In this document: one piece after another, positions 857 to 15,089 of the stretch | Layout: each line of letters opens with the position of its first letter | How positions within the stretch are numbered: position 1 is the first letter of the stretch | Source of the DNA: a virus | Reading direction: 5' to 3' (one strand) | Virus record (IMG/VR): IMGVR_UViG_3300045988_122518 | Length of the DNA stretch: 15,680 bases | Program-made: the position numbers and the translations under genes | Notes under the pieces: model-generated | Database searches by the model: none | The model's input: the letters and a program-made list of their open reading frames with translations, nothing else | Told to the model about the DNA's origin: nothing

Positions 857-1582
857 TTAATGGATATTTTTCATCCAGTTATCCGGCTTATTATCAGGCT
901 TCGCGCCTGCTAATCTAGACCGGATATCAATATCCCAATTAATATAAAGTTGATATCTTTCAACAAGGTCATAGAGTTGGAACATTGTTAAATCCATTAA
1001 ATCCTGTAAAGACATTGAATCAAGACCTATAGTAAGCATTGAAAGATACTAACTAAATATACTAGCATTAGCCGTGCCGTTTAATTCAGCGACACGTTGT
1101 CTACCTCGCATTAATTTATCGGCTATCTTTTTCGCGGCCGCATTTCCAGGATTGAATCCCATTTCTTGCGAAGCATTAGATTTAAAACAAAATATTTCTT
1201 TAATATATTCCTATAATATATTAAAATTGCTTTCGTCAATCATTATTTGTGGATCACCTTGTAAAACAATTGACCTCGGGGTAAATAAAACATTTTGCTT
1301 TGGAAACAATAATGTAAGAACCTACATAGATGCTTGTTTTTTATCGGCCATCTCTTTTTCTTTCATCATTGTCATAAATATCTAAAAATTATTTGTTTCT
1401 CTTAAAAGACTTTCGCCCGAATTCTCTATTATGTTTTTATCAATACATAAACACTAAATCCCCAAGAAAAGATCTTTTTCACCTATAAAAGAAATTTCTT
1501 TTATAGATGGCTAATGAATAGTGACTTCTAATTCAGGTATTGGTAAATCAATACCTGTCATTAAACCAAGTCTAATATCCAT
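857..1582 (-). CDS. Hypothetical structural-module protein, 241 aa, with 6 in-frame TAG sense codons (plus-strand cta at 1511, 1454, 1382, 1322, 1211, 1049). Its ATG overlaps the upstream TAA as TAATG.
   Basis: Track ORF 857..1039 continues upstream in frame through six TAG codons to ATG at plus 1580-1582. The first in-frame TGA lies upstream at 1589-1591. The stop is TAA at 857-859. The ATG shares a base with the TAA of the upstream gene (translational coupling). Product begins MDIRLGLMTGIDLPIPELEVTIH(Q)PSIK... Confidence 0.6.
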
Positions 1583-2163
1583 TATTCTTCAGTTCTTTTT
1601 TTAAAATCTTCTATAAATCTTTCCTCGTCATTAGGATTCGGCATAAATTTTTTATCTTCCTCGCCATGAACTGCCTGATACATAAGACATAAACCAGCAT
1701 ATTCATCAGTTAAAATAATTTGATTCGCACCAAGAAATTCTAACTTACCAATACCAGTTAAATGCGTTTTATCTATCATGCTATCAATTTCCGCGGCGAT
1801 GCGATAAGGGCGTAATTGATAATCTTTTAAATGCCATTGATCAAAATGACAAATAATATCGAATTCAACAATATTATCTCTAAACTCAGGATTTCCACTT
1901 TGTGTAAAATTATCAAAATTAATAATTAAATAATTTAATACACTTCCATCAACATAAAGTTTAGGAATTAACTTAATATTTTTATTAAATAATTGAATCA
2001 TTTGTTCATCATTTAAATCTGGTTTATCAATAGCATCTTTTGTTGTATAATACAATAAGCGCTTTAATCTCTCATTTTTACAGAGATGTTTTACAATAAT
2101 TTCTAAATCTTTTTCAACAGAAAGAAAACTTGATTTAGGTAAATTTACACCATTAATTTTCAT
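1582..2163 (-). CDS. Hypothetical protein, 193 aa (connector/tail region); no in-frame TAG.
   Basis: Intact standard-code ORF. ATG at 2161-2163 is preceded by AAGGAG at 11-nt spacing. Stop is TAA at 1582-1584. Confidence 0.8.
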   Translation of the reverse strand: MKINGVNLPKSSFLSVEKDLEIIVKHLCKNERLKRLLYYTTKDAIDKPDLNDEQMIQLFNKNIKLIPKLYVDGSVLNYLIINFDNFTQSGNPEFRDNIVEFDIICHFDQWHLKDYQLRPYRIAAEIDSMIDKTHLTGIGKLEFLGANQIILTDEYAGLCLMYQAVHGEEDKKFMPNPNDEERFIEDFKKRTEE

Positions 2164-2178
2164 AACACCTTTTACTCC

Positions 2179-3243
2179 TTAAAATAATGATTGAACTACG
2201 ATCGTTTTCTTATAGTCTCCATAACATAAATCGAACTATCCACTATATCCAGAAGTCCAACTTATTTCAACTGTTGGCTTTTTTGCTTCTTTAATAATTT
2301 TTAAAGAAACCGGCAACTTTTTATTATTCTTTATTTCCCATTCTAAAACAGCTTTACCATCAAAATAATAAGTATAAGTTTTTTTTGGAAAAATAAATGT
2401 TTCCCCTATAATATCAGTTGTCGTAGGATTTGGATCAATTGGTTCCGCAATTAAAGAACCAACAGTTTTATCATCTAAATTATCTTCCTACTCATTGGTA
2501 TAATATTCAGTCGCATTGATTTCTAAAATGCCAGGCATACTTATAGAATCTACAGCTTCAACACGCCAACAAATTAAATTATCTCCCTCATCCTAACCAT
2601 CTAAATAAAATTTAGTATAACGTTTAAAATATCTTAACGTATCTTTATTTTTTGGCATTAAAATATTTAATGAATAATTAGGATTATCTATACTAATTTC
2701 ATGTTTCTGAATATAATCAATTTTCGTTTCTACAGGACCGCGAATTGCTGCATAAGTAGATTTCTTCTCTCCCTCATCTACCCAATTTATTTTATAAGAG
2801 CATTTTCTAATATCTCCTCTAAAATAAGCTAATTCAGTCAAATCCTAAAGATAACAAATCCAATAGGTATTAGTTCCACACCATTCAAAAATATCTCCCG
2901 GTTTAAACTAATATTCATTTCCAACAGACAAAATCTTATCATCATAATCCTATTTCAATTTATTAGGATTAATCAAACATCTAATAGGTTTTTTATATTC
3001 CGCATCCTATTTAATAATTTCCGCGGCTTGGTATGAATTCCATACTGCTCTATCTAAACTTCTGCGTTTAGATAAAATCATACGCTCTTGTTGGCGGTTT
3101 CCGCCCATTTGACCGAGCCGGACCGCCATATAATTAACGCCTTCAACAGGGCTACCTTTAAAGGGTGGCTTATCATAAATTTCTAAGCGACCTTGCTATA
3201 ATCTAAAAGGTTGCTTACTACTATAATCAAACCCTGACGCCAT
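2179..3243 (-). CDS. Hypothetical structural protein, 354 aa, with 9 in-frame TAG sense codons (cta at 3196, 3007, 2950, 2908, 2845, 2593, 2488, 2236, 2197).
   Basis: Track ORF 2593..2841 is only the middle fragment. Hand translation extends the same frame upstream to ATG 3241-3243 (RBS AGGAGATAAATT-ATG; TAA directly upstream) and downstream to TAA 2179-2181. There is no TAA or TGA in between. Product begins MASGFDYSSKQPFRLQQGRLEIYDKPPFKGSPVEGVNYMAVRLGQMGG... and ends ...GDYKKTIV(Q)F(Q)SLF. Confidence 0.65.
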
Positions 3244-3568
3244 AATTTATCTCCTATAAAAGACTGATCGTTTCAAACACAGTCTTACGATAAAAATTAA
3301 AATCAGTATCTTGATTCTACAATCCCTCAAGTTTATTTAATAACTATAAATAAAGGGGTTCAGCGTTAAAAATCACACTAAACCCCACAATTTCATTTAT
3401 AACAGTTTCTAGCTATTTATGCCAATCTTCATTATTTTCGCGCATTGGAATTAATTTCCATAATTGATTGGTTAAGCGCAAACAATTTACTTTTATACTC
3501 TCTATTGGAATATCAAAATTATATTTAGTAATCATATCGACTTTTAAACACATCCCAATTAGATTCAT
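3227..3568 (-). CDS. Candidate small overlapping ORF, 72-113 aa depending on start (ATG at 3568, 3553, 3535 or 3445), with 4 TAG codons. Tentative.
   Basis: A second reverse frame has no TAA or TGA for about 119 codons (3584 down to 3227). That is unexpected for AT-rich non-coding DNA. It overlaps the 3' end of the 3525..4097 gene and the first 17 nt of the 2179..3243 gene. No convincing RBS. It contains the hairpin annotated separately. Confidence 0.3.
3331..3386 (-). terminator. Candidate intrinsic terminator for the minus strand: GGGGTT / AACCCC 6-bp stem with a 20-nt loop, followed on the minus strand by TTTATTTAT.
   Basis: Inverted repeat ggggtt (3355-3360) / aacccc (3381-3386). The T-rich run is the reverse complement of 3331-3354. 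The long loop makes it weak. Do not score this together with the overlapping-ORF call above: at most one of the two is right. Confidence 0.3.
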
Positions 3569-4097
3569 ACTCACCTTTGTTATTTAGACGTCTGCGTTTA
3601 TATAAACGCTACATATGGTGAGATTGTCTTTGGCATTCACCTAATAAATTCAATAGCTTTGATAGATGATTTGCCTAAGAAGTAAATTTAAAATCAGAGC
3701 CACTATATTTCATTCGAGTATTCTCAATTGAAGTGACTTGTCTTTGCGTCCAACCGCACATCATTAAAATAGCTAAAATATTAATTTCTTCTTCAGTTAG
3801 ATCACAATTAAAACTGGATCTATCAACTAAAACTTGAGGTTCTTCACCCGGTTCTGGAAGTTCCCCCCATACTGTTCCTACAATAAAATCATCCGGCATA
3901 GCATCAGATTCATTAATAGTAGCGACATCTAAATTATAATCTAAAAGATTTTTTCGCGGAAATTCAAATCCAGGAATAGCATCTATTATAAGATTCTATA
4001 AATCTCTTAGAGTATCTTCAGGGGTCAATTCCAGATACATATCATCAGTAACCTTGTTTAGAAAGCGATTATAAACAGCTGAGAATAATGTTCCCAC
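3525..4097 (-). CDS. Hypothetical head-tail connector-region protein, 190 aa, GTG start, 3 in-frame TAG (cta at 3996, 3675, 3609).
   Basis: Track ORF 3675..3899 extends upstream through TAG 3996 to GTG at 4095-4097. An in-frame TAA (4098-4100) lies directly 5' of the GTG, and AGGAGGG sits 7 nt upstream of it. The frame extends downstream through TAG 3675 and 3609 to TAA 3525-3527. Confidence 0.6.
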
Positions 4098-4116
4098 TTA
4101 ATCGCCCTCCTATAAA

Positions 4117-4710
4117 TTATTTCTTGGAGGAAGTTTCCTCGGTTTTATTAATTACTTTATATCCAGAACCGCTTGTGCGACGACCTTGAGTAGTAGGTTC
4201 TTCTCTTACTACACGACGCTTAGCAGCGGGTTCTTTCTCTACAATAGTATCTTCTTCTTTACTAGCGATATCATTAGCAATAGCTTTATCAACATCAAAC
4301 CCAGTTTTTTCCTTCAAAGCTCTACGCTTATTAATATCAGTAATAGGAAGGCTAACAGATAAATTCTTGATTAAGTCAATAATTCCAATAGGAGCAAAAT
4401 CAAGAGCATCTAAAAAAGCATCTAATGAGCCATTAAGAATTAAATCAGCAACTTGTTGCTCTGACATATTATATTCAGGTTCAGTATGAACATTAAGAGT
4501 ATGAGTTACTTCTGGCTCTAAAATTTGTAAAAAATTAGCAATTAATTCACGGCCGCCCGCCTGATAAGTTAACTTCTCTAGCTCACCAAATGGAATGCGC
4601 TTAGTTTCACCGGGCGCAAATTCACGACGCAAATTGGTATCAGGAATAGTATAAACAACTACGCTAGTGCTTCTATTTTTTACATTATAAATATCTTCAT
4701 TATTAATCAT
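4117..4710 (-). CDS. Hypothetical protein, 197 aa, with a basic C-terminal tail (…KRRVVREEPTTQGRRTSGSGYK…); no TAG.
   Basis: Intact ORF. ATG 4708-4710 follows AAGGAG at 10-nt spacing. Stop is TAA 4117-4119. It is the first gene after the capsid-gene terminator. Confidence 0.8.
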   Translation of the reverse strand: MINNEDIYNVKNRSTSVVVYTIPDTNLRREFAPGETKRIPFGELEKLTYQAGGRELIANFLQILEPEVTHTLNVHTEPEYNMSEQQVADLILNGSLDAFLDALDFAPIGIIDLIKNLSVSLPITDINKRRALKEKTGFDVDKAIANDIASKEEDTIVEKEPAAKRRVVREEPTTQGRRTSGSGYKVINKTEETSSKK

Positions 4711-4730
4711 TATTCAATTTCTCCTTTTAC

Positions 4731-4777
4731 TCATAAAACAAAAATATGGGGAGAGGGAGTTTAATCCCTTCTCCCCA
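4731..4777 (-). terminator. Rho-independent terminator immediately downstream of the major capsid gene (minus strand).
   Basis: Left arm GGGGAGAGGGAG (4748-4759), loop TTTAAT (4760-4765), right arm CCCTTCTCCCC (4766-4776). The stem is 11 bp with one mismatch. On the minus strand it is followed by ATATTTTTGTTTTAT. Confidence 0.7.
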
Positions 4778-4796
4778 TGGAATAATTTATATTAAA

Positions 4797-5903
4797 TTAG
4801 ACAGTACCGTCAAGGCGACCATCATAAGTGATAACCTTACCAGTAACTCCATCATAATTCCAAGTATACATCTGACCGAGAAGTGAAGTATCAACATAAG
4901 CACAGATGTTATTAGCGAGCATGCAAACTACGCCAACCTTCTTGTAAACCTGAATCTCACGAGAACGATCATAATTGTTGAACTCGTCAACAATAGTGCC
5001 ACCTTCAAAAGCAATCTTTACAGGCTTACCATCAGCGCCCGTAGGAATAACCCAAGCATAGCCAGGATCAATAACCTTACGAGTATTGGTTTCATCTTCA
5101 AAGCCCTGCTCAAGAATAATAACCTTAGTACCCTTGTAAGTGGCAAGACGACCATTATTCCAAAGCTCGTTCTTCATAGCTTCAGTATATCTCCAAGCCT
5201 CATGAGGAATCATCTTAACAGCAAACTCATAAGTACAATAAATAGTAGGAGTACCATAAGCAGAAGCAATAGTGATCAAACGATCCATAGCAGCTTCATC
5301 AAATCCGGCAGCCGCAACGCGGTTAGCAGGAGGAAGCTGATTGATAGAAGATCTAAGAGCAGCAGCGACTTCTTTATAAATAAGTTCATCCATACCATCC
5401 ATGATGATCTTGGTTACTTCACCAAAATCAACACGACCATCAAGGAATTCTTCGAAGCCAATCTGAGCAGCTCCGCCGATAGCGCTAGTACGTACCTCAA
5501 AGGCTTCATTCTCTTTAGGTCCGAGCTTGAAGACTTCATAAATACCAGCAAGACCAACGCGAGTTACAAACTGCTTAGCACGAGCACGATTATTAAGAGG
5601 ACGACGGAAAATAGGCTTATCACCCTGAGCGAAAGTTTTAACCTCAGCAAACTGATCATATTGCTGAATAACTTTCTTAGGAAGAACCTCATCAAGAGTC
5701 TGCTCAATCATAGAGAAAATAAGATTCTTATTTTCACGATAAAGAGCGTAAGTACCAGCCAACTCATTCATTTCATTACGAAGAGTTTCATTTAAGGCTT
5801 CATAACTAAGATTTTTTCCCTCATAACTATAAGCAACAGGAGCAGAAGGATCAGCCTTAGCAACTTGCTTCATAAGAGCAATTAAATTATTTTTATCTAA
5901 CAT
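4797..5903 (-). CDS. Major capsid protein (HK97-fold type), 368 aa; no in-frame TAG.
   Basis: Intact ORF with RBS AAAGGAG and TAA stop. The sequence (…RPLNNRARAKQFVTRVGLAGIYEVFKLGPKE…AMDRLITIASAYGTPTIYCTYEFAVKMIP…) is typical of caudoviral major capsid proteins. It lies downstream of the portal, a scaffold-like gene and a 305-aa head gene, and is followed by a strong terminator. The family assignment is from memory of capsid sequences, not from a search. Confidence 0.75.
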   Translation of the reverse strand: MLDKNNLIALMKQVAKADPSAPVAYSYEGKNLSYEALNETLRNEMNELAGTYALYRENKNLIFSMIEQTLDEVLPKKVIQQYDQFAEVKTFAQGDKPIFRRPLNNRARAKQFVTRVGLAGIYEVFKLGPKENEAFEVRTSAIGGAAQIGFEEFLDGRVDFGEVTKIIMDGMDELIYKEVAAALRSSINQLPPANRVAAAGFDEAAMDRLITIASAYGTPTIYCTYEFAVKMIPHEAWRYTEAMKNELWNNGRLATYKGTKVIILEQGFEDETNTRKVIDPGYAWVIPTGADGKPVKIAFEGGTIVDEFNNYDRSREIQVYKKVGVVCMLANNICAYVDTSLLGQMYTWNYDGVTGKVITYDGRLDGTV

Positions 5904-5920: not shown

Positions 5921-6838
5921 TTACTTAATACGCATTACCTTGACGCCCTTTTGACCATCAGGCATAGTATAAACCTTAACAACCTGCCAGGTCATTGAAT
6001 CGTCGCCAGTTTTGCTAAGAATACCCTTTGTAGCAGCAGAAGGAGAAAGCTTATCTCCAACAGCAAGAGTCTCTTCATTAATCATATTAGTAGTATAAAG
6101 ATCACCAATCATGGTCTTAAATACACGAGGAACCATAGAAGTACCAGATTCCATGAACTTCTCATGGTAGATACCCAACTTATGATATGGATCATTGGTC
6201 CAATTCATTTCATACATATCAGGAACATCAGTGAGAACCTTATCATAGTAATACTTTACAGGAACATTAGCAACCTGATGATTACTATCAAGAGTATATT
6301 CATTACCATCATAAGTAAATTTGCCGGTTTCATCAACATCATAAACACGACCAGCAATAGTAACAGTCTTTAAGCCCTGATCGGCAGAAACGGTCTGATT
6401 GATTAATTTATAGGTTTGACCCTTTTCATCAACACCATTCCAGAAACGACCACCATATTCAACCTCGGTATGCTCCCAATCATAAGGACTATAAACACGA
6501 GCCTGATAGTCATCTTTAATCATAGCAAATTCGCAGTCCCACTGCTTACTACCATCATAATGATCACGATAAAGCTTAATCTCGTTATAAACGAGCATCC
6601 ATTCACCTTCGCCAGTGAAGTTGACTTCACCGATACCATTACCATTAGCAGCATAGTCATACTTTACAAACTGACCGTTTTCAAGAATCTCAATGTCTTT
6701 ATTGGCAGGAAGTTGAGCATAGATTTGAGCATTTCTTTGTGCGGAAAGGTGATTAGGCTCGACCTGACCGTAACCAAACTCAACATACTTTGCCTGAGAC
6801 TTAATAGGAAGATTCTTATTCAAAAAGTCTTTAAACAT
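5921..6838 (-). CDS. Head-associated protein, 305 aa (possible decoration or auxiliary capsid protein); no TAG.
   Basis: Intact ORF. ATG 6836-6838 follows AAGGAGG at 9-nt spacing. Stop is TAA 5921-5923, 17 nt before the capsid gene RBS. Gly/Tyr/Asp-rich and beta-type composition. Confidence 0.75.
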   Translation of the reverse strand: MFKDFLNKNLPIKSQAKYVEFGYGQVEPNHLSAQRNAQIYAQLPANKDIEILENGQFVKYDYAANGNGIGEVNFTGEGEWMLVYNEIKLYRDHYDGSKQWDCEFAMIKDDYQARVYSPYDWEHTEVEYGGRFWNGVDEKGQTYKLINQTVSADQGLKTVTIAGRVYDVDETGKFTYDGNEYTLDSNHQVANVPVKYYYDKVLTDVPDMYEMNWTNDPYHKLGIYHEKFMESGTSMVPRVFKTMIGDLYTTNMINEETLAVGDKLSPSAATKGILSKTGDDSMTWQVVKVYTMPDGQKGVKVMRIK

Positions 6839-6855: not shown

Positions 6856-8430
6856 TTAATTTTTGTTGGCGGTAGCAAAAGCCGCCTTCACCCAAGCGGG
6901 CATATCATCATCTTCTGAACCATTATTGTTCAAATTAAAAGTAGTAGCACCATTGGGCTTATTATTTTCGTCAAGGTCGAAACTCACCTTGTTGCGAACA
7001 CAAATAACAGATAATTTAGCTTCAATATCATCAAGAGAATATTTATCAATATTTTCAACAACATCAGCCTTATCTTCATCAGAAAGCATATAGAATTTAG
7101 CAATCATATCTTCTTTATCTTTCTTTTCAGCAGCATTTTTAAATTCAGCAAGTGGAGCAATTTGCTCTTTCAAGCTATTATTTTCAGTTTCAAGAGCTGC
7201 GAATTTAGTCTGTAATTCATCATACTGAGCTTTAAGTTCAGTATATTCAACAACTTCTTCAAGAGAATAATTCTTCTTTTTCTTTTTATCATCATTCTCA
7301 CCATTGTCGCCTTTATCAGACTTATTAGAGGGCTCTCCATTATCAGGGTTCTTTTTATTATCATTGCCCTCTGATTTATTTTCACCGTCAGGATTATTTG
7401 ATTTATTATTTTTGTCCTCTTCTGCTTTCTTTTTTGAAGCATACTCATTTTCAAATTCTTCTACAGCATTAAGAGCAAACTGAGGCTCAGCCGCAGGAGC
7501 ATAATCAGTTACTTCAATCAAAGTATCAGAAGGAACGAAATTCTCTGCATCAAGAGAAAAATCCATACGATAGTATTTTTCATCCTGCTTATTCTTCAAA
7601 ACAGCAAACTTTTGTTCACCATCTTCACAAACACCTTCAATGCGATAAACAGAACAATAATTCTTTGGTTCGACAGGATACTTATTCTCAATATAAGAAT
7701 AAAGAGAATTCCACAAATTGTCGCCAATATTAACAGCGTATTGTGTAAACACTTTGGCTCCTCCTTCTTTCATAAATTCTTTAAGTTCATTCATCATGGA
7801 GAACAAAGTGTTCTTAAAACCATCATCGAATGAAAAATTCACATTGATTTGGGAGCCTTCGAAACAAGGTTCATTTTCTTCTCCCAAAATACAAAGTTTA
7901 GAAATAATTGCCTTATTTATAATAAAAAACTAAGGTTTTCCATTGCTATCTTTTGCCCACGTAGCATTTAATGTTTTTTCATCAAGCTCCATAGAATGAT
8001 TATTCCCTTTATCAACCACACGTTTACATTCAGGATACTAACCAGTCCACAAATAACCTTCAGTCATTAAATACTCACGTTCGGCAACACCATCATCCAA
8101 AAATTTCTAAAACCAAACTTTAGCTCCAAGATCAACAAAACCATAAGGGCGAGTATTATCTCTCATTCTAAATTCGCCGTTAGATAATTCAATTATCCTA
8201 TTATGTTCTTCAAAATCTTCAGCATTCTCATTAAAAAAGCCAACAATAGGACTGCCAGGAAGGCTATTAGCCATCTCAGTCGCTACATCTTTAGTAATTA
8301 CGCTTTTATTACGATTAGGTTTATCATCTACATAACAAACCTTAATTTGGCATTTAGAAATTAAAGGATTTACAGGAGTTATATTTATAAACTCACAAGG
8401 TGTATTTAATTTAATACTTGTATGTTTCAT
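6856..8430 (-). CDS. Head morphogenesis protein, 524 aa: an N-terminal globular domain (possible prohead protease or minor head domain) fused to an acidic coiled-coil scaffold-like C-terminal part. Has 3 in-frame TAG (cta at 8107, 8038, 7930).
   Basis: Track ORFs 8107..8430 and 6856..7887 share one frame and are joined by TAG codons with no TAA or TGA between them. ATG 8428-8430 follows AAGGAGG. Stop is TAA 6856-6858. The C-terminal half is K/D/E/N-rich low complexity plus heptad-like coiled coil (…ELKAQYDELQTKFAALETENNSLKEQIAPLAEF…). It sits between the portal and capsid genes. The protease idea rests on position only. Confidence 0.65.
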
Positions 8431-8439
8431 AAATCCTCC

Positions 8440-10089
8440 TTATTTCATTGCTTCTTTATTTTGAATAGTTTTTTCACTTTTCTAATCGTCAGGTTTTTCC
8501 GGACGCCCTGCCTCACCATTAGAAGTTTTAACAGTTCCAGAACCTGAGCTTCCTGAATTATTTTGAGTTTTATTATTAGATGATGAACCTTTTAAACCCA
8601 AAATATCTTCACTACCCATAGTAGAACTCATAAGAGGAGGAATCATAATTTCGCTTAAATGTAAAATCTCATTTTCAAAATGAGCTGCATTAAGAATAAA
8701 ACTCTACGAATGTCCAAGAGCAATCTAAGACAATAGTTTTGATTGTCCCATTTGTGCTTGTTCTTTATACATTTTAGAAAGTGTTTGATAATTATTCTAA
8801 GTAGTTTCTAATAAATAAAATCTAAAATTATATTTCTTATTACTACTCTTTTTTTCAATAATTCTATTAAAGAATATATTAAACTATAAAATTAAACTTC
8901 TTATTGTAGATTCATCATTTAATACTGATTTTTCTAAAGCCATATTACCATCAGTATTAAATAAATTCTATGAAATACCTAATGAATTATAAACACTACG
9001 TTCAACTTTAGCTAAATCATCTGTCGTTGTAGTAGTATTCTTATCAGACATATCAATAGAATCTACATCAGTAAATGTAGTTAAAACATCTACTCCAATA
9101 GCCCTCTATAACATCTAAACGGCATTATTATGGATATCTCTGGCTTCATCAACATCAAATATCAAATCACCATTTTTATCCATTGGGAGCTTTTGGACTA
9201 AAATTTTAAGCAACTTCTACATTTGTTTCTTGCGGTCAAGATCTTGCGCTGCATCTAAATCCATAATAGTAGGAATCGAATTTACAAAAATAGGAACATC
9301 ACTATTATTAATATTAAATTTAATACAATTTTCTGGCTCAAGAACATACCAACTACCAGTATGCTAGCATCCAACCGCTTCTTCTAAAGCAAGTTTTCCT
9401 TGCTTATATAAAACATAACCTTTAGCAAATTCTTCTGGGAATAATTTTAATACTTTTAAACGATAATTCATATCTCTAAAAGTATCAAAAAATCGCATAT
9501 CAAATTCAACAACTGGGGTATTATTTACACTATAACGTGTTCTACAATATCTAACTGGTAATTCTTGTAAAATTAGATTTTTCTCAGAAGGAACTATATA
9601 TCCATAATAGCATCCATTTTTAACGACTTGTAAAGCAATATCTCCACAAATCTTTTTAATATAACTATTATCAAAATAATTTAACATTCTATAAAAATCT
9701 TTTAAAACTTTTTCTTCTTTTACATTATCATCATAAGTCTCAGCCGCGATATACCAATCATAACGATATAAAAAAGCAACATAATTACAAACTCGTTGAT
9801 ATACACCACTTATATCATAATAAAAATTAGAAATATAACGCAAAGCATTTAAATCTTTTTCTGCAAGCGCGCGAAGCACATCAGGTTTCGTGATAATACG
9901 AGTTTGACCTGGGTATCTAATCTTACTATAATCACCAAGTTTTAAAATAGCGTCATCTAAAGTTTTTGTGCCAACTTTTATTTTTCTATTGGCATAGTCC
10001 ATGGTATCATTATAATTATATTCATAACGACCATTATAAATATCAAAACCTTTAGCATGAATCTATTCATTACGATCTTGCGTATCCAA
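8440..10089 (-). CDS. Portal protein, 549 aa, TTG start, 11 in-frame TAG (cta at 10063, 9364, 9217, 9115, 9106, 8968, 8884, 8797, 8725, 8704, 8482).
   Basis: Track ORF 9364..10002 is only the N-terminal third. The frame continues with no TAA or TGA down to TAA 8440-8442. Upstream, AAAGGAGGTGG followed by 7 nt and TTG at 10087-10089 is a much better start than the internal ATG 10002. An in-frame TGA lies at 10120-10122. It is the large gene directly after the terminase. Size and position fit a portal. Confidence 0.65.
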
Positions 10090-10102: not shown

Positions 10103-10459
10103 TTAATAACCTGCTAATTTCATTATATAATCATAAGAAATAAGGTTTTCGTCGGTATATGGAATCTCTATTAATCTAAAATCATGTAAAGCGCAAAAAC
10201 GTCTTTTTTGATTATCATTATATTGCTACTGGTATAAACCGCGCTTTCCACCAAATTTAGAACTGGCTTCATAATGCTATTTTCCCTAATACTCAATAAT
10301 GAAATCAATTTTTCCATCATCATCAAATATAACAAAATCAAAACGAAGCGGACGCCCGCTTGGGCTTTTTAAATCTGGAAAGATGTATTCCATTTTAAAA
10401 GGTAGTCCTGCTTCTTCTAAGATTTCTTCAATTTTAATTTCTCCTCTTGAAGCACGCAT
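10103..10459 (-). CDS. Small nuclease-like protein, 118 aa, between terminase and portal: putative PD-(D/E)XK / Vsr-like (DUF559-type) homing endonuclease. Has 3 in-frame TAG (cta at 10286, 10277, 10226).
   Basis: ATG 10457-10459 follows AAGGAGGG at 6-nt spacing. Stop is TAA 10103-10105. Motif …RPLRFDFVIFDDDGKIDFIIEY(Q)GK(Q)HY… resembles the (P)D…ExK/QH core of Vsr/DUF559 restriction-endonuclease-like folds. This is recalled from memory and needs an HMM check. Confidence 0.5.
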
Positions 10460-10471: not shown

Positions 10472-12211
10472 TTAATTTAAAAAGCACCAATCAGCCGCAT
10501 TAAACTTTTTACGTTTTTTCTTTTTATCTTCTTCAAGTTTTAAATAATATAATCCATATTCAAAAGCCGAAAATTTATCTTTACGAATTCCGCGATTTGC
10601 CTATTTTAAAATAATATTAATACCTTCATTTTCTTCGCGTAAATTCATCATTTCTTCTTTTAATATGGAGGTTAAAGTAAATGGTTTTAAATAATCTGCC
10701 CTTTGTTCAGAAGTCATTTTTGAACCTTTTTGAGTAGCTAATAATTTTTCTTTAGCTGTTCTCTCATCTATTAAGAATTTTACCTTACCCGCTTGTAATT
10801 GAGTCTGAGCATTAGCATGACATTCAGTATTTATTGGAGCATTTGCTTTAATAACATACATAGCATCAAATTGAGTATTTGGTGTGCGATATTTTTTATA
10901 ATATCCATCATCATCATTCTCAACACCAAAATCAGGTAAAAATTCACCATCTTCATCATTTTGAGATTTTACCATATAATCCAAAAGTCCAATACCTAAA
11001 CCATTACCATCTATAACCAAAGTTTTAGCTTTATATTTATAAAATAATTTCTTTAATTTAATAGCCTGATCTTCAAAATGATCATCTGACATAGTATACA
11101 TATTTACTAAAGACTTAATAGCTGGACCTTGGGCTTGTGGTGTTACTTTAAATACACAAACTACTGAATCGCATCCTTTACGACCTACATCTACAGAAAG
11201 CACATAATAAGCTTGCGCGCCCGCACGTCCAGAAGCTTCATACTCAGGCTATAATAATTTTCTATTTCTATCAAAATGCTCTCCATTAAAGAAAGCATCC
11301 TCAACAGTTCCTGACCACTTAGATTCATATTCACGTTCAAATGAAGCTTCATTATAAGTTCCTTCATTCTTTTGGTCAGTAATAAATGTTTTACTTTGTA
11401 ATCCTACTGCAACAGGAGTTCGCCATGTTCCGCCTAATACCATACAACGATCGGGCTAAGTCACCATACGAACTAAGAAACCAATAAGTCTATCATAAGG
11501 GAATGTGCCCTTATAACCAGCAGTAGTAATATAAATTTGTGATTTATTTAATGGCTCTTGTTCATTAGTAGTGCCGTCTTTGGCTCTACGAGAAATTGCC
11601 ATAACAGGAATAATAACTTCACGAAGAATAGCATCATCAATACCAACACATTCTTCCATTAATCCACCATGACGACGTTGACCACGAGTGCTTTCACGAG
11701 CCGCAAGGTTATCCAAAACTGAACCATTTTTAAATACATATCTAACTTTATCTTTTCCTTCAAGAGTTTTTCCTCGGCTCCAATCAATTTCTCGATTAAA
11801 GCTTGGAATAAGTTCGCATATTTCTTGAACTTTATCATGAAGAATACTAGCACCTTGCTCTTTACCTCCAGAAGTAACGAACAAATGTGCGCCAGGATAT
11901 AAAATACATCTAATCATTAATGTCATAACAGACAAAAATGATTTAGAATAAGCACGAGGAAAAACCGCATAAACATACTGATAACGCATAACAGAACGGA
12001 GAAATACTCTCTAATAAAAATAAAAATTAAATTCTCCATCTTTTATTTCAGTGCGTCTTCCTCGCACCATAAAATCTACAAATAAATCAGGATATTCTCT
12101 CCAAAAGGCAACGTATTTGCGGATGGTAGGCATTACCGCTTCTACTCGCTCCGGTGATAGACCTATTTTTCTACGGCTATCACTTAACTACAATAAATCT
12201 TGTAATGCCAT
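10472..12211 (-). CDS. terL: Terminase large subunit, 579 aa, 5 in-frame TAG (cta at 12188, 12011, 11456, 11249, 10601).
   Basis: Track ORFs 11456..11989, 11249..11443 and 10601..11203 are one frame joined by TAG. The N-terminus has an ATPase with a deviant Walker A (VFPRAYSKSF). The C-terminus has an RNase-H-like nuclease (LSVDVGRKGCDSVVCVF … TLVIDGNGLGIGLLDYMV). ATG 12209-12211 overlaps the upstream TAA as TAATG. Stop is TAA 10472-10474. Confidence 0.8.
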
Positions 12212-13398
12212 TATTTATCCAAACCCTATAAAAACTCATTATCTTGCGCAGATTCCTATTCTTTAAATTCCTCAAAATCTGCGTAATCACTATCTTTGAT
12301 AGTTTTTTCAAGTTCTTCAATACTTAAATCAGCATCATCAACGATATCGCTTTCCGCGTTCTTTGCTTTCTCTTCATCTTCTTTAGCATTTTCGCGCAAA
12401 GCTTTTTCTACCATTGTACTGATATTAGTTTCATCTTCAATAAGAGTGCGAGTATAACGTTGCATATCTTGAATAGTCAAGTCCACTTTATCATGTGGCT
12501 ATTCAACATAATATCTTTCAATATATCCTTCTTTTTCACATAATTCAATTAATTCGCCAATTGAATCAACAAATTCGCCTGATTCTGCTTTATTTTGGGC
12601 AGCAGTAAATTTACCAGACTTCATTAAGCTATCATATACTTTGCTCATCTTTTGGAAACCTTCAATATCACCAATATCGATCAATTGATTTGCCTTTAAA
12701 GATGTCTTACATATTAATTTTAGCGTATCTTTATGTCCGGCGCCTTGAATATCATAAGAAGCCATCATTTCTTCATATAACTATTCAAGTTTAACCCATT
12801 CTTCAGGTTTATAAGTTTTGCCCCATTTAAGTCTTAAATAAGTGCGGTCTTCATCAGTTAAATCTAATTCTTGTTCCACTTCACCACTCTATTGTGCGAA
12901 ATAATCTTCCGTAGGGGCATCAGGTGGTGGAGCATAAACCGGCTCTTTTAATTCTCCTTCTGGAATAGTAATAGAACTTTTTTCAATAGCAGTTGCAATC
13001 TATTGAGCATCATACCCTTGACGTTTCATAGTTTGCTCTAATTTATTATTTGCCATCTACTGTAAAAATTCTGTATCTTTCCAACGATAATCTTTAAACT
13101 ATTTGAGTTTCATTTTTGACAAATAACGTCCAAGAATTGTCATACCGGTCATAGACTGCGGATCGCGTCCATATTTTTCCATTAATTTATTCCATTCATC
13201 TGGAACATAAGGAACATCCGCTTCTTGTAAAATCCATAAATAAGTATCTGGATTCCAATTATCGACGTGCATTGTCATACATTTTTTGCACATGGGGAAT
13301 TTACCATTATTAGGATATTTTTCTAAATTATTAGATGAATAAAATTCCGTGCCATTCATTGTGCGATTACATTTTTCGCAATAATATGTTTCAGCCAT
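12211..13398 (-). CDS. Putative terminase small subunit or DNA-recognition protein, 395 aa, with an N-terminal CxxC…CxxC zinc ribbon and an acidic C-terminus. Has 8 in-frame TAG (cta at 13099, 13057, 13000, 12889, 12781, 12499, 12256, 12226).
   Basis: Track ORFs 13099..13398, 12499..12768 and 12256..12486 share one frame joined by TAG. ATG 13396-13398 follows AAAGGAGAA. Stop TAA 12211-12213 overlaps the terL ATG, giving translational coupling. The TerS call rests on position only. Confidence 0.55.
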
Positions 13399-13447
13399 AA
13401 ATAAAAAATTCTCCTTTCAATTATTTATTATAAACAAAAGGACAATA

Positions 13448-14503
13448 TTAAGATTTTTTGGCCTTAGAATTTCGACAACTTTTACAAATACTATAAAAGC
13501 CATCTTTACTTGTTTTATTTTTACTAAAATATTTATTATGAGCTAATTTTATTTTACCACAACGACTACATTTTTTATATTTACCTTTTTCAACATTTAA
13601 ATAATAATTATCTAAATATTCATCTTCCGCAGTCGAAGCAATTAATTTTGGAATTTTATTACGCCATAAACTTGAAATATATTCAAGACTATGTTTAATA
13701 CCAAATTCCATTTGTATTTTCTCTTGAATGTCAATATTTTGTAAACCATCAATTTTATATTCAACGATTCTATCATAAAGAGGATAATTAGCTAAAGCTT
13801 TATCACAAAGCTTATCAAAATCCTCCATTAAATACCATAAGTCTTTATCATATTCGCCCCAACTATCTTGCTTTAATCGGGAATAATTATATAAAACCGC
13901 AGAACATATTTCAGGTCTTAATAAACTAATTCCATCAGGAATGGGAAAACCATCATCATCAAAAATAAATGTTTTATCATCTAATGGAATATAAGACTTT
14001 GATCTGGTTAATTTTGTAGGCACTATTGGACGACGATAAGCATTTTTCATAACATACTAATCTTTACGCATTTCAATAAGAGCCTTTTTAATAACAAAAG
14101 CATCTTTGCCTTCTGTTACTTTTAATTTAGCCTCCCAAACATTAATGGCTTCTCTTAACTAATTTAAACTTGGTATCTCTTCTAAATCTTTTTTTGTAAT
14201 TGTAATATGTGGTTGAAATATTGTATTTCTATTATCTGTAATTAAATTATAAATTCCATCTTCGCCATTTTCAAGTTGGGAAACAAGACCTTCAAAAGAA
14301 GTCTCACGCTTATTAACTGTAGCCATACGATTATCAGTTAATAATTTTTTCTCCTTTTTTTCTTGTTTCTCCATACAAAGAACCAAATAGTCTGCTAAAA
14401 TTTCTAAATACTTTTCAGGCGGATCTGGATTATCAGCCAAAATTTGTTCGACTAATTGATTTCTTTCTTCTGGAGTTTGTAAAGAATAATCAAGTTTTAT
14501 CAT
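13448..14503 (-). CDS. DNA-binding protein, 351 aa, with a C-terminal CxxC…DG…CKxC zinc ribbon. It is the first gene of the late operon and a possible regulator. Has 2 in-frame TAG (cta at 14159, 14057).
   Basis: Track ORFs 14159..14503 and 13448..14050 share one frame joined by TAG. ATG 14501-14503 follows GGAGGT at 5-nt spacing, directly downstream of a consensus promoter. Stop is TAA 13448-13450. C-terminus reads …KKCSRCGKIKLAHNKYFSKNKTSKDGFYSICKSCRNS. Confidence 0.6.
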
Positions 14504-14527
14504 TTTTTACCTCCAGTCTATATTTAT

Positions 14528-14556
14528 ATTATACTCGAAAAAATTTTTTTTGTCAA
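14528..14556 (-). promoter_or_regulatory. Sigma-70-type promoter for the minus-strand late operon: TTGACA – 17 nt – TATAAT, all 12 consensus positions matched.
   Basis: Reverse complement of 14551-14556 is TTGACA. Reverse complement of 14528-14533 is TATAAT. The spacer is 17 nt. The minus-strand gene starts at 14503 about 25 nt downstream. Confidence 0.6.
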
Positions 14557-14638
14557 GTTTCATTTAAAATTTTTTCTTTTTATATTTAAAAATTTTTTTA
14601 ACAAAACAAATAACTTTTGCCCAATCACTCTCCACGAT

Positions 14639-14667
14639 TTGACATTTCTTTATTTTTATTTTATTAT
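14639..14667 (+). promoter_or_regulatory. Sigma-70-type promoter for the plus-strand genes: TTGACA – 17 nt – TATTAT.
   Basis: ttgaca at 14639-14644 and tattat at 14662-14667. Downstream are AAGGAG and ATG 14697. Confidence 0.5.
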
Positions 14668-14696
14668 TATTATAAGAAAAAAGAAAAGGAGTATTT

Positions 14697-15089
14697 ATGG
14701 AAACTATTTTTATTATATTATTGAGTTGTGCGTTAGTAGCATCACTCCTTTTTTTATGGTTATATAGAAAAGCTTTTTGGGTATTGTACCAAAAAATGGT
14801 AAATTAGCAAAAAGAATTGAATAAATGGCCAATCGCACAATATGAGTGTATGCTATTGTTAAATATATTTTATAATTATGATTTTGAGGGAAGAGCAGTA
14901 GATTTTTCGCGATATGAAACGCAAGGACTAATTGTTTATAATTGTTTTCATGATGCAAAAAATAGTCCAAAAGGAATTACAAATGATGGAATTGTTTCAT
15001 CATTTTATAAACAAGCATTTGTATATGAATTAGATGATGGAACATTTGAATGGGAGGATATTGAAGATGGGATGGAACCAGCCTTTTGA
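14697..15089 (+). CDS. Small membrane-anchored protein, 130 aa, with an N-terminal transmembrane helix and 1 in-frame TAG at 14805-14807. Terminated by TGA.
   Basis: ATG 14697 follows AAGGAG at 5-nt spacing. The hydrophobic N-terminus reads METIFIILLSCALVASLLFLWLY. The frame continues through TAG into track ORF 14817..15089. Stop is TGA 15087-15089, so TGA is not reassigned. Confidence 0.6.

What the first reader, a model, noticed from the sequence alone, without database searches (positions are those of the whole stretch)
857..15089. TAG is decoded as a sense codon throughout this phage region (code-15-like stop-codon reassignment)
Hand translation shows about 51 in-frame TAG triplets in 10 genes. 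At every one the reading frame continues with protein-like sequence until TAA, or once TGA. After joining the fragments, gene boundaries fall 9-20 nt apart, each with a GGAGG-type ribosome-binding site. The joined products have recognisable architecture: terminase ATPase plus nuclease, a 549-aa portal, a 524-aa head/scaffold fusion. Pseudogene decay of all these essential genes at once is not credible. Other frames were checked and rejected; the adjacent no-TAG genes make the specificity visible. TGA terminates the 14697..15089 gene and TAA all the others, so only TAG is reassigned. Standard-code annotation fragments this genome badly, as the supplied track shows. The inserted amino acid cannot be read from DNA alone; Gln is assumed by analogy.
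Basis: seen in the sequence. Interest (0 to 1): 0.9.

Follow-up and report, generated by a model that had tools for sequence, protein, structure and literature searches.

The report
Gut phage reads TAG as glutamine

Summary

- **Stop codons.** In the reading frame of the 14 minus-strand genes (4,477 codons) there are 53 TAG, 0 TAA and 0 TGA. The two other frames hold 73-356 of each of TAA and TGA.
- **Coding density.** Reading TAG as sense raises ORF coverage of the window from 70% to 96%. Reading TGA as sense gives no gain.
- **Homology.** PHROG profiles and cultured-phage homologues align across the TAGs over full gene length.
- **Amino acid.** It is glutamine. In 27 strains at 90-97.5% nucleotide identity, TAG alternates almost only with CAA/CAG. 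In standard-code relatives, 54% of TAG sites align to Q, against 50% for true Q sites and at most 5% for the other residue types checked.
- **Decoder.** A tRNA(CUA) lies in a tRNA cluster about 55 kb from the window in near-identical genomes (up to 97.9% identity). A minimal HDV-like ("theta") ribozyme-like sequence follows it directly.
- **Distribution.** Early genes and the most abundant virion proteins avoid TAG.

All of this matches published code-15 phages (Borges, Peters, Babkin, Kienbeck). It is a further lineage of a known kind, so interest is low to moderate. A long-variable-arm form of the suppressor tRNA is the only unusual detail.

The parts
2..832 (-). Tail-tube-like virion protein. 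N-terminal 277 aa; the gene runs off the window. 0 TAG.
   Evidence: phrog_2729 virion structural protein, E=1e-50. Pfam YomU_Tube on the full-length homologue.
857..1582 (-). 241-aa structural protein. 6 in-frame TAG; TAA stop.
   Evidence: phrog_4051 aligns residues 1-240 on profile positions 4-245 of 247, across all 6 TAGs. Pfam YomV_2nd. TAG alternates with CAA at codons 43 and 124 in close strains.
1582..2163 (-). 193-aa virion structural protein. 0 TAG.
   Evidence: phrog_6123. Pfam YomW.
2179..3243 (-). 354-aa structural protein. 8 in-frame TAG; TAA stop.
   Evidence: Code-15 ORF. Same length as Enterococcus phage H1 gene H1_67 (353 aa) at the syntenic place. phrog_31155.
3227..3568 (-). 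113-aa protein. 4 in-frame TAG; ends in TGA. Overlaps both neighbouring genes.
   Evidence: phrog_29637, E=9e-16. The public gene call has the same ends. Codon 86 is TAG or CAG among strains.
3525..4097 (-). 190-aa protein with a GTG start after GGAGG. 3 in-frame TAG.
   Evidence: phrog_3853 aligns from residue 2, E=4e-33.
4117..4710 (-). 197-aa protein. 0 TAG.
   Evidence: phrog_30998. 0-2 TAG in all recoded relatives.
4797..5903 (-). Major capsid protein (368 aa). 0 TAG. Gln is encoded by 10 CAG and 2 CAA.
   Evidence: Pfam YonB. phrog_4088, E=1e-58. The exact sequence occurs in 1,068 blocks of the public collection. Codon counts.
5921..6838 (-). 305-aa head-module protein. 0 TAG; 9 CAG and 5 CAA.
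   Evidence: TAG-free in all 13 divergent relatives.
6856..8430 (-). 524-aa protein with a YonD_N domain, a charged linker and a coiled-coil-like C-terminus. 3 in-frame TAG. A protease or scaffold role was not tested.
   Evidence: phrog_3313 aligns residues 8-503. Pfam YonD_N plus weak HALZ. No PDB relative by sequence.
8440..10089 (-). Portal protein (549 aa) with a TTG start after GGAGG. 11 in-frame TAG.
   Evidence: phrog_2739 portal, E=7e-82, one stretch covering residues 74-546. MT836163 aligns from residue 5 with Q at codon 9. Codon table.
10103..10459 (-). 118-aa endonuclease-like protein between terminase and portal. 3 in-frame TAG.
   Evidence: phrog_9084 and phrog_559, E=1e-26. All three TAG sites are Q in MT836163 and CAA/CAG in L151; two of the three are Q in Enterococcus phage H1.
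10472..12211 (-). Large terminase subunit (579 aa). 5 in-frame TAG.
   Evidence: tblastn: 46-47% identity over about 570 aa to the annotated TerL of Enterococcus phage H1 and Geobacillus virus E3. phrog_2. Codon 67 is Q in all five reference phages.
12211..13398 (-). 395-aa YonG_N protein at the small-terminase position. 8 in-frame TAG.
   Evidence: phrog_3314, E=2e-58, residues 2-341. Pfam YonG_N.
13448..14503 (-). 351-aa first gene of the late block. 2 in-frame TAG. Labelled 'sigma factor' only by PHROGs.
   Evidence: phrog_5767, E=1e-54. No Pfam sigma domain in it or in its E3 and H1 homologues. No PDB match.
14528..14556 (-). Perfect sigma-70-type promoter (TTGACA-17-TATAAT) upstream of the 13448-14503 gene.
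   Evidence: 12 of 12 match. It is the only perfect match in each 21-kb locus, and it is conserved in all close strains and in L150.
14639..14667 (+). Divergent promoter-like site (TTGACA-17-TATTAT) upstream of the plus-strand genes.
   Evidence: 11 of 12 match.
14697..15089 (+). 130-aa membrane-like protein. 1 in-frame TAG (codon 37); TGA stop.
   Evidence: Codon 37 is TAG in 20 close strains, CAA in 5 and CAG in 2.
15067..15462 (+). 131-aa early-side protein. 0 TAG; TAA stop.
   Evidence: The public gene call has this length. Used as the anchor for walking the genome.

Best explanation
The window is the packaging, head and proximal tail module of a roughly 181-197-kb tailed phage from gut metagenomes. 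Its structural genes resemble those of SPbeta and Enterococcus phage EF1.

In its late genes UAG is a glutamine codon. TAA remains the main stop and TGA a minor stop.

Decoding is most likely done by a suppressor tRNA with a CUA anticodon. This gene sits in a cluster of at least 18-21 tRNA genes (the loci end inside it), about 55 kb from the window, in near-identical genomes of this phage. It has no encoded CCA end. A minimal HDV-like (theta-type) ribozyme-like sequence follows it directly and would cut out its 3' end. The host then presumably adds CCA and charges it with Gln.

Shown here: the in-frame TAGs, the equivalence of TAG with Gln codons, the tRNA gene, and its position next to the ribozyme-like sequence.

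Inferred from published work on other code-15 phages: early genes, which lack TAG, are translated in the standard-code host first. Late genes can be completed only once the suppressor tRNA has accumulated. Recoding would then act as a translational timer. The most abundant virion proteins avoid TAG, presumably because suppression competes with release factor 1.
For: Stop codons and coding density. Frame 0 holds 53 TAG, 0 TAA and 0 TGA in 4,477 codons; ORF cover is 70% under code 11 and 96% under code 15.

Homology across the TAGs. Profile and homologue alignments run full length across them, and synteny with cultured standard-code phages matches gene by gene.

Glutamine, from close strains. 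At the window's 54 TAG sites, 27 strains at 90-97.5% identity carry TAG 1,022 times, CAA 42, CAG 34, and any other codon 3 times; never TAA or TGA. Conversely, where a strain has an in-frame TAG, the window has CAG or CAA in 142 of 145 cases.

Glutamine, from distant relatives. All 567 in-frame stops in 13 more distant relatives are TAG. In standard-code relatives, 53.8% of TAG sites align to Q, against 49.6% for true Q sites and at most 5.2% for the seven other residue types checked. Among all 20 residues Q is the best-fitting by 90 log-likelihood units for close relatives and 25 for cultured phages.

The tRNA. tRNA(CUA) genes occur in contigs of the same phage, including one that is 97.9% identical to the window. 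Rfam scores them as tRNA at 52-56 bits. They have G73 and a weak or mismatched 1:72 pair, as tRNA-Gln does.

The ribozyme-like sequence. It starts 1-2 nt after the tRNA and aligns over the full length of the Rfam HDV-like model RF02682 (E=0.004, below the gathering score). All eight scanned of the 10 IMG/VR contigs carrying this sequence have tRNA(CUA) directly upstream.

Distribution of TAG. Early ORFs have 1.7 TAG per 1,000 codons, the late block 11-12, and the tape measure 38. The capsid and tail-tube genes have none.

Known relative. Phass-1 (TerL 45% identical) is filed by NCBI under 'Caudoviricetes code 15 clade' and carries three Sup-CTA tRNAs.
Against: - No tRNA lies in the window or within 10 kb of it. 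The suppressor was found in relatives at 96-98% identity, not on the window's own contig.
- There is no protein-level evidence.
- The commonest form of the suppressor has a roughly 22-nt variable arm, which normal bacterial tRNA-Gln lacks. Its charging with Gln is inferred from codon evolution and acceptor-stem features, not shown.
- The ribozyme match is below Rfam's threshold.
- Only about 40% of the genome was read, so release-factor or synthetase genes cannot be ruled in or out.
- The host and its genetic code are unknown.
- The timing model is borrowed from other phages.
Confidence: 0.93

Rival explanations
1. The TAGs are real stops. The region would then be a decaying prophage or a set of pseudogenes, or the genes are genuinely split into short ORFs as a standard-code annotation shows.
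For: Under code 11 the window does break into 23 short ORFs. Two PHROG families match only the N-terminal or only the C-terminal part of TerL.
Against: - There are no TAA or TGA in 4,477 in-frame codons.
- TAG sites are conserved or exchanged only with Gln codons in 27 strains and 13 divergent relatives.
- The joined proteins align full length to homologues.
- The phage is abundant: its capsid sequence occurs in 1,068 blocks of the public collection, and the longest carrying contig is 50-200 kb in 404 of them.
Confidence: 0.01
2. TAG is decoded, but as an amino acid other than glutamine. Candidates are pyrrolysine, or Ser, Leu or Tyr, as the long variable arm of the 90-nt tRNA(CUA) might suggest.
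For: ARAGORN labels the tRNA 'Pyl' because of its CUA anticodon. The 90-nt form has a class-II-like variable arm. Bacterial SerRS and LeuRS ignore the anticodon (established knowledge).
Against: - TAG sites have the substitution profile of Gln sites. Y, L, S and W sites align to Q in only 0-2.5% of cases, against 54% for TAG sites.
- TAG exchanges with CAA, which is two mutations away, more often than with any one-step neighbour other than CAG.
- The tRNA has a normal D-loop with GG and a normal T-loop, unlike tRNA-Pyl.
- Strains carrying the short, class-I forms show the same TAG pattern.
- One long-arm relative has the canonical tRNA-Gln acceptor stem UGGGG...CCCCA-G-CCA.
Confidence: 0.03
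3. There is no phage-driven code switch. Either the host itself reads UAG as sense, or read-through relies on host near-cognate tRNAs without a dedicated suppressor.
For: The host is unknown. No suppressor tRNA lies on the window or its immediate flanks. Borges et al. detected suppressor tRNAs in only about 40% of TAG-recoded phages.
Against: - The same phage carries tRNA(CUA) in every contig that reaches the relevant slot.
- Early genes avoid TAG, as expected if they must be read in a standard-code cell.
- Eleven TAGs in the portal and 39 in the first 1,017 codons of the tape measure are incompatible with low-efficiency near-cognate read-through.
- To my knowledge no bacterium with UAG=Gln is known.
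Confidence: 0.03

Closest known systems
Phage phAss-1 and the proposed Phassvirus genus (Babkin et al. 2023, PMC10607447; NCBI 'Caudoviricetes code 15 clade')
   Same: - Human-gut siphovirus-like phage with TAG read as Gln in TerL, portal and tail genes.
- Carries Sup-CTA tRNAs, including the same long-variable-arm type.
- TerL, portal, capsid and other head genes are homologous.
- Belongs to the same wider group as Enterococcus phage EF1.
   Different: - TerL is only 45% identical.
- The genome is about 181-197 kb against 133-138 kb, and G+C is roughly 28-40% across the window against 44.5%.
- The phAss-1 suppressor tRNAs encode CCA and have no ribozyme-like sequence downstream.
- This is not a member of that genus.
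Code-15 crAss-like phages and Lak megaphages (Ivanova 2014; Devoto 2019; Yutin 2021; Peters et al. 2022, PMC9523058)
   Same: TAG is reassigned to Gln in late genes of gut phages that infect standard-code hosts. The phages carry their own suppressor tRNA. Gln at TAG has been confirmed by metaproteomics for two crAss-like phages (abstract seen).
   Different: Those are unrelated lineages with Bacteroidota hosts. No proteomics exists for this phage. Its structural genes are SPbeta/EF1-like, which points to a Bacillota host.
Recoded phage clades of Borges et al. (bioRxiv 10.1101/2021.08.26.457843; Nat Microbiol 2022), especially the roughly 200-kb TAG-recoded 'Sapphire' clade and the 'Agate' clade
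   Same: - Large gut phages. The preprint predicts Firmicutes or Bacteroidetes hosts for its clades; which phylum applies to Sapphire and Agate was not seen.
- Recoding is concentrated in structural genes.
- Standard-code close relatives exist within the same clade.
- Suppressor tRNAs are present, and the same late-gene timing model applies.
   Different: Membership could not be tested because no sequences of those clades are available to the tools. Lysis genes and RF2 were not examined here.
tRNA-associated theta ribozymes (Kienbeck et al. 2024, PMC10879173)
   Same: A minimal HDV-like sequence starts 1-2 nt after the 3' end of a CCA-less suppressor tRNA(CUA) in a code-15 gut phage. This is exactly the published context.
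   Different: Only a sub-threshold Rfam match (26 bits against a gathering score of 44) and a hand-drawn fold support it. Self-cleavage is untested. About 90% of the published examples have Bacteroidota hosts.
E. coli supE (glnV) amber suppressor tRNA-Gln(CUA)
   Same: It works the same way: a tRNA-Gln with a CUA anticodon inserts Gln at UAG in competition with RF1 (established knowledge).
   Different: supE is a chromosomal point mutant giving partial suppression. Here the tRNA is phage-borne, part of a genome-wide recoding, and in most strains carries a roughly 22-nt variable arm.

Membership tests
Code-15 (TAG to Gln) recoded Caudoviricetes | In-frame TAG in conserved essential genes, while TAA and TGA stay excluded from the frame | tested here: met
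   53 TAG, 0 TAA and 0 TGA in 4,477 in-frame codons; other frames hold 73-356 of each of TAA and TGA.
Code-15 (TAG to Gln) recoded Caudoviricetes | Coding density rises by more than 5-10% under code 15 compared with code 11 (the criterion quoted in PMC10879173) | tested here: met
   Window: 69.7% to 95.6%. A 73.6-kb composite of a near-identical genome: 73.2% to 85.2%. Code 4 gives no comparable gain. This used a greedy ORF cover, not Prodigal.
Code-15 (TAG to Gln) recoded Caudoviricetes | TAG positions correspond to Gln in standard-code homologues | tested here: met
   53.8% of TAG sites align to Q, against 49.6% for true Q sites. Q is the best-fitting residue by 25-518 log-likelihood units. 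Codon tables.
Code-15 (TAG to Gln) recoded Caudoviricetes | Phage-encoded suppressor tRNA with a CUA anticodon | tested here: met
   Absent from the window. Present in 10 contigs of the same phage, one of them 97.9% identical to the window.
Code-15 (TAG to Gln) recoded Caudoviricetes | Recoding concentrated in late (structural and lysis) genes, with early genes compatible with the standard code | tested here: met
   Early ORFs have 1.7 TAG per 1,000 codons, the late block 11-12, and the tape measure 38. Lysis genes were not reached.
Code-15 (TAG to Gln) recoded Caudoviricetes | Gln found at TAG positions in the proteins (mass spectrometry) | not testable with these tools
   Needs metaproteomics of the kind reported in PMC9523058.
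Code-15 (TAG to Gln) recoded Caudoviricetes | The host uses the standard code | not testable with these tools
   The host is unknown. Relatives are binned into Clostridia, Lachnospiraceae, Erysipelotrichaceae, 'Mollicutes' and one Muribaculaceae (Bacteroidota) metagenome-assembled genome. That reflects binning and is not proof of host.
Phassvirus (proposed genus, Babkin 2023) | Nucleotide similarity and synteny with phAss-1: about 80-86% nucleotide identity, a genome of about 135 kb and 44% G+C | tested here: not met
   No megablast match to any phage record. TerL is 45% identical. Contigs are 181-197 kb and G+C is about 28-40%.
tRNA-associated theta (minimal HDV-like) ribozyme | Cleavage site (G1) within 5 nt of a tRNA 3' end | tested here: met
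   The tRNA ends at L146 19719/19720 and the ribozyme-like sequence starts at 19721. The same arrangement occurs after all three forms of the suppressor tRNA.
tRNA-associated theta (minimal HDV-like) ribozyme | HDV-like nested double-pseudoknot fold with a catalytic C in J4/2 | tested here: inconclusive
   End-to-end alignment to RF02682 (model positions 1-74 of 74) at 26.1 bits, E=0.0037, below the gathering score of 44. The P1 helix with a G1-U wobble, P2 (AAACAAA/TTTGTTT), P3 and 'GCTAA' were seen by eye. The published descriptor was not available.
tRNA-associated theta (minimal HDV-like) ribozyme | Self-scission in vitro | not testable with these tools
   Requires an experiment.
Pyrrolysine decoding of UAG | A pylT-type tRNA: small D-loop without G18G19, a 3-nt variable loop and an atypical T-loop (features recalled from general knowledge of tRNA-Pyl, not checked in a paper here) | tested here: not met
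   The tRNA(CUA) forms have a normal D-loop with GG, a GGTTCGAATCC T-loop, and variable regions of 4-5 nt or about 22 nt. The residue profile is that of Gln. pylSBCD genes were not searched for.

The most novel reading that the evidence does not exclude
Two unusual features go beyond ordinary code-15 recoding and are not excluded by the evidence.

(1) The decoder is a previously uncharacterised class of Gln-type amber-suppressor tRNA with a conserved variable arm of about 22 nt. It is shared with Phassvirus and other large gut phages: 17 IMG/VR contigs carry it, in five acceptor-stem variants linked by compensatory changes. In this phage it is interchangeable, at one genomic slot, with two short class-I forms. 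All three forms are followed by the same theta-type ribozyme-like sequence. The arm could be an identity or protection element, for example for charging or for evading host tRNA nucleases.

(2) The first gene of the late block lies behind a perfect host-type sigma-70 promoter yet contains TAG codons in every recoded relative. Suppressor-tRNA accumulation, rather than transcription, might therefore time the late programme.
Probability: 0.25. Interest if true: 0.5.

Novelty: new member of a known kind. Interest (0 to 1): 0.25.

Why it matters
**Practical value.** Annotating this abundant gut phage with the standard code shreds its terminase, portal, tail and other late genes. Any pipeline handling it must use table 15. 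The public collection behind look-up of encoding contigs already calls these genes at code-15 length, so the databases have largely caught up.

**Scientific value.** The window adds a well-resolved case to a known phenomenon.
- Strain-level TAG to CAA/CAG exchanges show directly that TAG is a synonymous Gln codon.
- Standard-code members of the same clade show that recoding is gained or lost over short evolutionary distances.
- TAG appears to have replaced CAG specifically: CAG is nearly absent from recoded genes.
- The most abundant virion proteins stay TAG-free, which fits a cost of suppression.

None of this would surprise a specialist in phage recoding. The long-arm suppressor tRNA might interest people who engineer orthogonal translation systems.

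Tried and rejected
**Searches that found nothing**
- Megablast of the whole window against 50,697 phage records gave no match.
- No tRNA in the window, within ±10 kb, or in the first roughly 45 kb walked to the right. Four further walking steps were needed before the tRNA cluster appeared.
- Looking up the 131-aa window protein by exact sequence: not on record.
- Pfam on ten window proteins gave essentially nothing; the local copy lacks the PF27xxx SPbeta families.
- PDB sequence searches for the 524-aa protein, the capsid protein and the 'sigma-like' protein gave no usable hit.
- Pfam on the 'sigma factor' homologues found no sigma domain, so I do not endorse that label.
- Rfam at gathering thresholds found only tRNAs.
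- A literature search for the Borges paper by clade names returned mineralogy papers.

**Readings considered and rejected**
- TGA or TAA as a sense codon: neither occurs in frame, and code 4 gives no gain in density.
- Pyrrolysine, or other amino acids, at TAG.
- A tRNA-SeC(tca) call in L162: its stems are poor, so it is probably a false positive.
- An effect of the base following TAG: no marked bias among the 54 sites.

**Not done**
- No scan for release-factor or synthetase genes. About 60% of the genome was not fetched, and the 26 largest ORFs of the walked region did not look like either by eye.

Full report
**1.

Under the standard code the window breaks into short ORFs. With TAG read as sense, the minus strand tiles into 15 consecutive genes from position 2 to 14503, followed by two plus-strand genes.

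I count 54 in-frame TAGs in 11 genes:

| Gene | TAGs |
|---|---|
| 857-1582 | 6 |
| 2179-3243 | 8 |
| 3227-3568 | 4 |
| 3525-4097 | 3 |
| 6856-8430 | 3 |
| 8440-10089 | 11 |
| 10103-10459 | 3 |
| 10472-12211 | 5 |
| 12211-13398 | 8 |
| 13448-14503 | 2 |
| 14697-15089 | 1 |

In the reading frame of the 14 complete minus-strand genes (4,477 codons) there are 53 TAG, 0 TAA and 0 TGA. Frames 1 and 2 hold 137 and 323 TAA, 73 and 356 TGA, and 85 and 74 TAG.

A greedy ORF cover of the window gives 69.7% under code 11, 95.6% under code 15 and 70.4% under code 4.

Most genes have a GGAGG-type site upstream and are 9-24 nt apart. Two genes, not one, end in TGA: 3227-3568 and 14697-15089. The rest end in TAA and none ends in TAG.

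**2. What the genes are**

PHROG profiles align as single stretches across the TAGs:
- portal, E=7e-82, residues 74-546;
- phrog_4051, residues 1-240 of 241;
- phrog_3314, residues 2-341;
- phrog_3313, residues 8-503.

TerL is 46-47% identical over about 570 residues to the annotated terminases of Enterococcus phage H1 and Geobacillus virus E3. It is 60% identical to an unannotated 12-kb faecal contig, MT836163.

Gene order and lengths match Enterococcus phage H1 almost gene for gene. Paired lengths in aa (H1 / window) are 388/395, 591/579, 122/118, 525/549, 365/368, 191/190, 104/113 and 353/354.

Precomputed Pfam hits on identical or near-identical public gene calls name SPbeta-type families: YonG_N, YonD_N, YonB, YomW, YomV, YomU_Tube and a PhageMin_Tail tape measure.

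Those public gene calls already have the code-15 lengths (351, 395, 579, 118, 524 aa and so on). The capsid sequence occurs in 1,068 blocks of the collection, on contigs up to 197 kb. IMG/VR holds contigs of 181-197 kb.

**3. The amino acid is glutamine**

Three independent comparisons agree.

(a) *Close strains.* In 27 strains at 90-97.5% nucleotide identity, the window's TAG sites carry TAG 1,022 times, CAA 42, CAG 34 and anything else 3 times; never TAA or TGA. Fourteen of the 16 variable sites switch to Gln codons. Where a strain has an in-frame TAG that the window lacks, the window has CAG or CAA in 142 of 145 cases.

(b) *Divergent relatives.* In 13 relatives from metagenome bins (capsid 73-98% identical), all 567 in-frame stops inside the alignments are TAG. 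At the window's TAG sites, across those 13 plus MT836163 and L031, the non-TAG codons are mainly CAA (181) and CAG (43), then GAA (46). Two members of the clade have no in-frame stops at all: L151 (capsid 87% identical) and MT836163.

(c) *Residue profiles.* In those two standard-code relatives, 53.8% of TAG sites align to Q. The figure is 49.6% for genuine Q sites and at most 5.2% for the seven other residue types checked (E, K, R, L, S, Y, W). A likelihood comparison over all 20 residue profiles puts Q first. The margin is 90 log-likelihood units for close relatives, 25 for the three cultured phages and 518 for all relatives.

**4. The decoder**

The window and its ±10 kb flanks hold no tRNA. 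I walked rightwards along IMG/VR contigs of the same phage.

The walk first crossed a region of small plus-strand genes. It then reached a cluster of at least 18-21 tRNA genes that includes a tRNA with a CUA anticodon. Rfam confirms these as tRNAs at 52-56 bits.

The contig closest to the window (3300045988_118370, 97.9% identical over 10.6 kb) carries the tRNA.

Three forms occupy the same slot, between tRNA-Val(UAC) and tRNA-Tyr, in different strains:
- a 90-nt form with a variable arm of about 22 nt;
- a 73-nt form;
- a 72-nt form.

All three have discriminator G73 and a weak or mismatched 1:72 pair, and none encodes CCA.

The long-arm form is clearly related to one of the three Sup-CTA tRNAs of phAss-1. 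It occurs in 17 IMG/VR contigs. Across five variants the acceptor and D stems show compensatory changes, while the arm itself is invariant. One variant has the canonical tRNA-Gln acceptor stem, UGGGG...CCCCA-G-CCA.

**5. The ribozyme-like sequence**

Directly after each form comes the same roughly 55-nt sequence, GGTGCTAAAAACAAAACCTCCTCGCGGTAGCACTGGGTAATGCTAATTTGTTT.

It aligns end to end with the Rfam HDV-like model RF02682 at 26 bits (E=0.004). That is below the gathering score of 44.

All eight scanned of the 10 IMG/VR contigs containing it have tRNA(CUA) immediately upstream; the other two loci were not scanned.

This is the context published for theta ribozymes.

**6. Where TAG is and is not used**

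In a 73.6-kb composite of contig 110853:

| Region | TAGs / codons |
|---|---|
| Early plus-strand ORFs | 10 / 6,044 (35 of 42 ORFs have none) |
| Late block | 35 / 3,099 |
| First 1,017 codons of the tape measure | 39 / 1,017 |
| Tail-tube gene | 0 / 328 |

In the window, the capsid gene, its neighbour 5921-6838, and genes 4117-4710 and 1582-2163 have no TAG. The capsid gene and 5921-6838 stay TAG-free or nearly so in all recoded relatives; 4117-4710 carries 0-2 and 1582-2163 carries 0-5.

Recoded genes contain almost no CAG (0-4 per gene). The TAG-free capsid gene uses 10 CAG and 2 CAA. TAG therefore seems to have replaced CAG.

TAGs are spread evenly along the genes, with no marked bias in the following base.

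A perfect TTGACA-17-TATAAT promoter lies at 14556-14528 on the minus strand. It sits just upstream of the first late-block gene, which has 2 TAGs. It is the only perfect match in each 21-kb locus and is conserved among strains.

PHROGs calls that gene a sigma factor. Pfam and PDB searches give no support for this.

**7. Mechanism, with its status**

*Shown:* the reassignment pattern, the equivalence of TAG with Gln codons, the tRNA(CUA) gene, and its ribozyme-like neighbour.

*Inferred from established knowledge.* supE-type tRNA-Gln(CUA) inserts Gln at UAG. CCA is added after transcription. The host charges the tRNA, as proposed for phAss-1 and by Borges et al..

*Inferred by analogy.* Early, TAG-free genes are translated first in a standard-code host. 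Late genes are completed only after the suppressor accumulates. Abundant proteins may avoid TAG because of competition with RF1; that last step is my own inference.

**8. Comparison with what is known**

TAG-to-Gln recoding in gut phages is established. Sources are Ivanova 2014, the Borges et al. preprint read, Peters et al. 2022 with proteomics (abstract), Babkin et al. 2023 and Kienbeck et al. 2024.

NCBI taxonomy even has a 'Caudoviricetes code 15 clade' that contains the relative Phass-1.

This phage is not a Phassvirus. TerL is 45% identical, the genome is 181-197 kb against about 135 kb, and G+C is about 28-40% against 44.5%.

It may belong to the roughly 200-kb TAG-recoded 'Sapphire' clade of Borges et al. 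I could not test this.

The host is unknown. Relatives are binned into Clostridia, Lachnospiraceae, Erysipelotrichaceae, 'Mollicutes' and one Muribaculaceae metagenome-assembled genome.

**9. Rival explanations**

- Pseudogenes or genuinely split genes are excluded by the frame statistics and by conservation.
- Another amino acid, including pyrrolysine, is excluded by the residue profile and the tRNA's features.
- A host that itself reads TAG, or read-through without a suppressor, is unlikely. The phage carries its own tRNA, early genes avoid TAG, and late genes hold up to 39 TAGs.

**10. Verdict**

The finding is a further lineage of a known kind, so interest is modest.

The least ordinary details are the long-variable-arm suppressor tRNA family and the swapping of three suppressor forms at one slot in front of one ribozyme-like sequence.

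Noticed in passing
L146 19631-19720; L145 18987-19076; L163 3369-3458; L147 19290-19362; L164 5903-5974 (outside the window): Three different tRNA(CUA) genes (90 nt with a roughly 22-nt variable arm, 73 nt, and 72 nt) occupy the same slot between tRNA-Val and tRNA-Tyr in different strains of this phage. The long-arm type is shared with phAss-1 and occurs in 17 IMG/VR contigs. Its acceptor stem shows compensatory variation and G73 is constant. No paper that I found discusses the arm.
   Followed up: partly
L146 19721-19775, and the same sequence in 10 IMG/VR contigs (L162-L171): A minimal HDV-like (theta-type) ribozyme-like sequence starts 1-2 nt after the suppressor tRNA. It is identical behind all three tRNA forms. 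The Rfam RF02682 match covers the full model but scores below threshold (26 bits, E=0.004).
   Followed up: partly
L142 9681-9751, L146 9735-9805, L147 8910-8980; also L164 6550-6622: ARAGORN reports a 71-nt tRNA-like gene with a 6-nt anticodon loop (AUUUAA, 'Lys|Stop'). It sits at the start of the tRNA cluster next to tRNA-Trp and is nearly identical in four strains (one base differs in L146). A second such oddity has the loop AUCAUU. Rfam's tRNA model does not reach threshold on them. Their function is unknown.
   Followed up: no
window 4797-5903 and 5921-6838, compared with the recoded genes: CAG is the main Gln codon in the TAG-free capsid gene (10 CAG, 2 CAA) and its neighbour (9 CAG, 5 CAA). 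It is almost absent (0-4) from the genes that contain TAG. These two genes also have higher G+C (0.38-0.40 against 0.28-0.33).
   Followed up: partly
window 14504-14696: This divergent intergenic region holds a perfect sigma-70 consensus promoter facing the late block (14556-14528, minus strand) and an 11-of-12 promoter facing the plus-strand genes (14639-14667). A host-type promoter in front of a TAG-containing first late gene is notable.
   Followed up: partly
window 10472-12211 (TerL): Two PHROG families of 'unknown function' match only TerL residues 11-210 (phrog_15503, 245 positions) and only residues 354-579 (phrog_24618, 230 positions). They look like terminase fragments produced by standard-code annotation of recoded phages.
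   Followed up: no
L151 (CAAFXG010000343.1, Lachnospiraceae MAG) and L002 (MT836163.1): These are members of the same clade with no in-frame stops at all (capsid 87% and 58% identical). Recoded and standard-code phages therefore coexist at short evolutionary distance.
   Followed up: partly
L149 (CAMELE010000001.1, 163,874 bp) and L150-L161: Contigs of this phage and its relatives are deposited as parts of bacterial metagenome-assembled genomes. One, labelled 'uncultured Mollicutes bacterium', is 96.3% identical to the whole window. These are probably binning artefacts rather than host evidence.
   Followed up: no
L114 12399-13049 (minus strand of the locus): A 216-aa ORF with 10 in-frame TAGs lies on the opposite strand inside the otherwise TAG-poor early region.
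   Followed up: no
L131 17201-21174 and the composite of contig 110853 at 53.8-63.1 kb: Just before the tRNA cluster lie several large genes with CxxxCxxC radical-SAM-like motifs, a 695-aa protein with 9 TAGs, and a 605-aa protein. By eye this looks like a peptide-modification-type cluster. No family search was run.
   Followed up: no
L134 20377-21144: A GIY-YIG-like homing-endonuclease ORF with 4 in-frame TAGs is inserted in the tRNA cluster of one strain (contig 126226) and is absent from another strain (L137).
   Followed up: no
L162 7726-7805: ARAGORN calls a tRNA-SeC(tca) in one contig only. It has mismatched acceptor and T stems and is probably a false positive. TGA behaves as a stop throughout.
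   Followed up: partly
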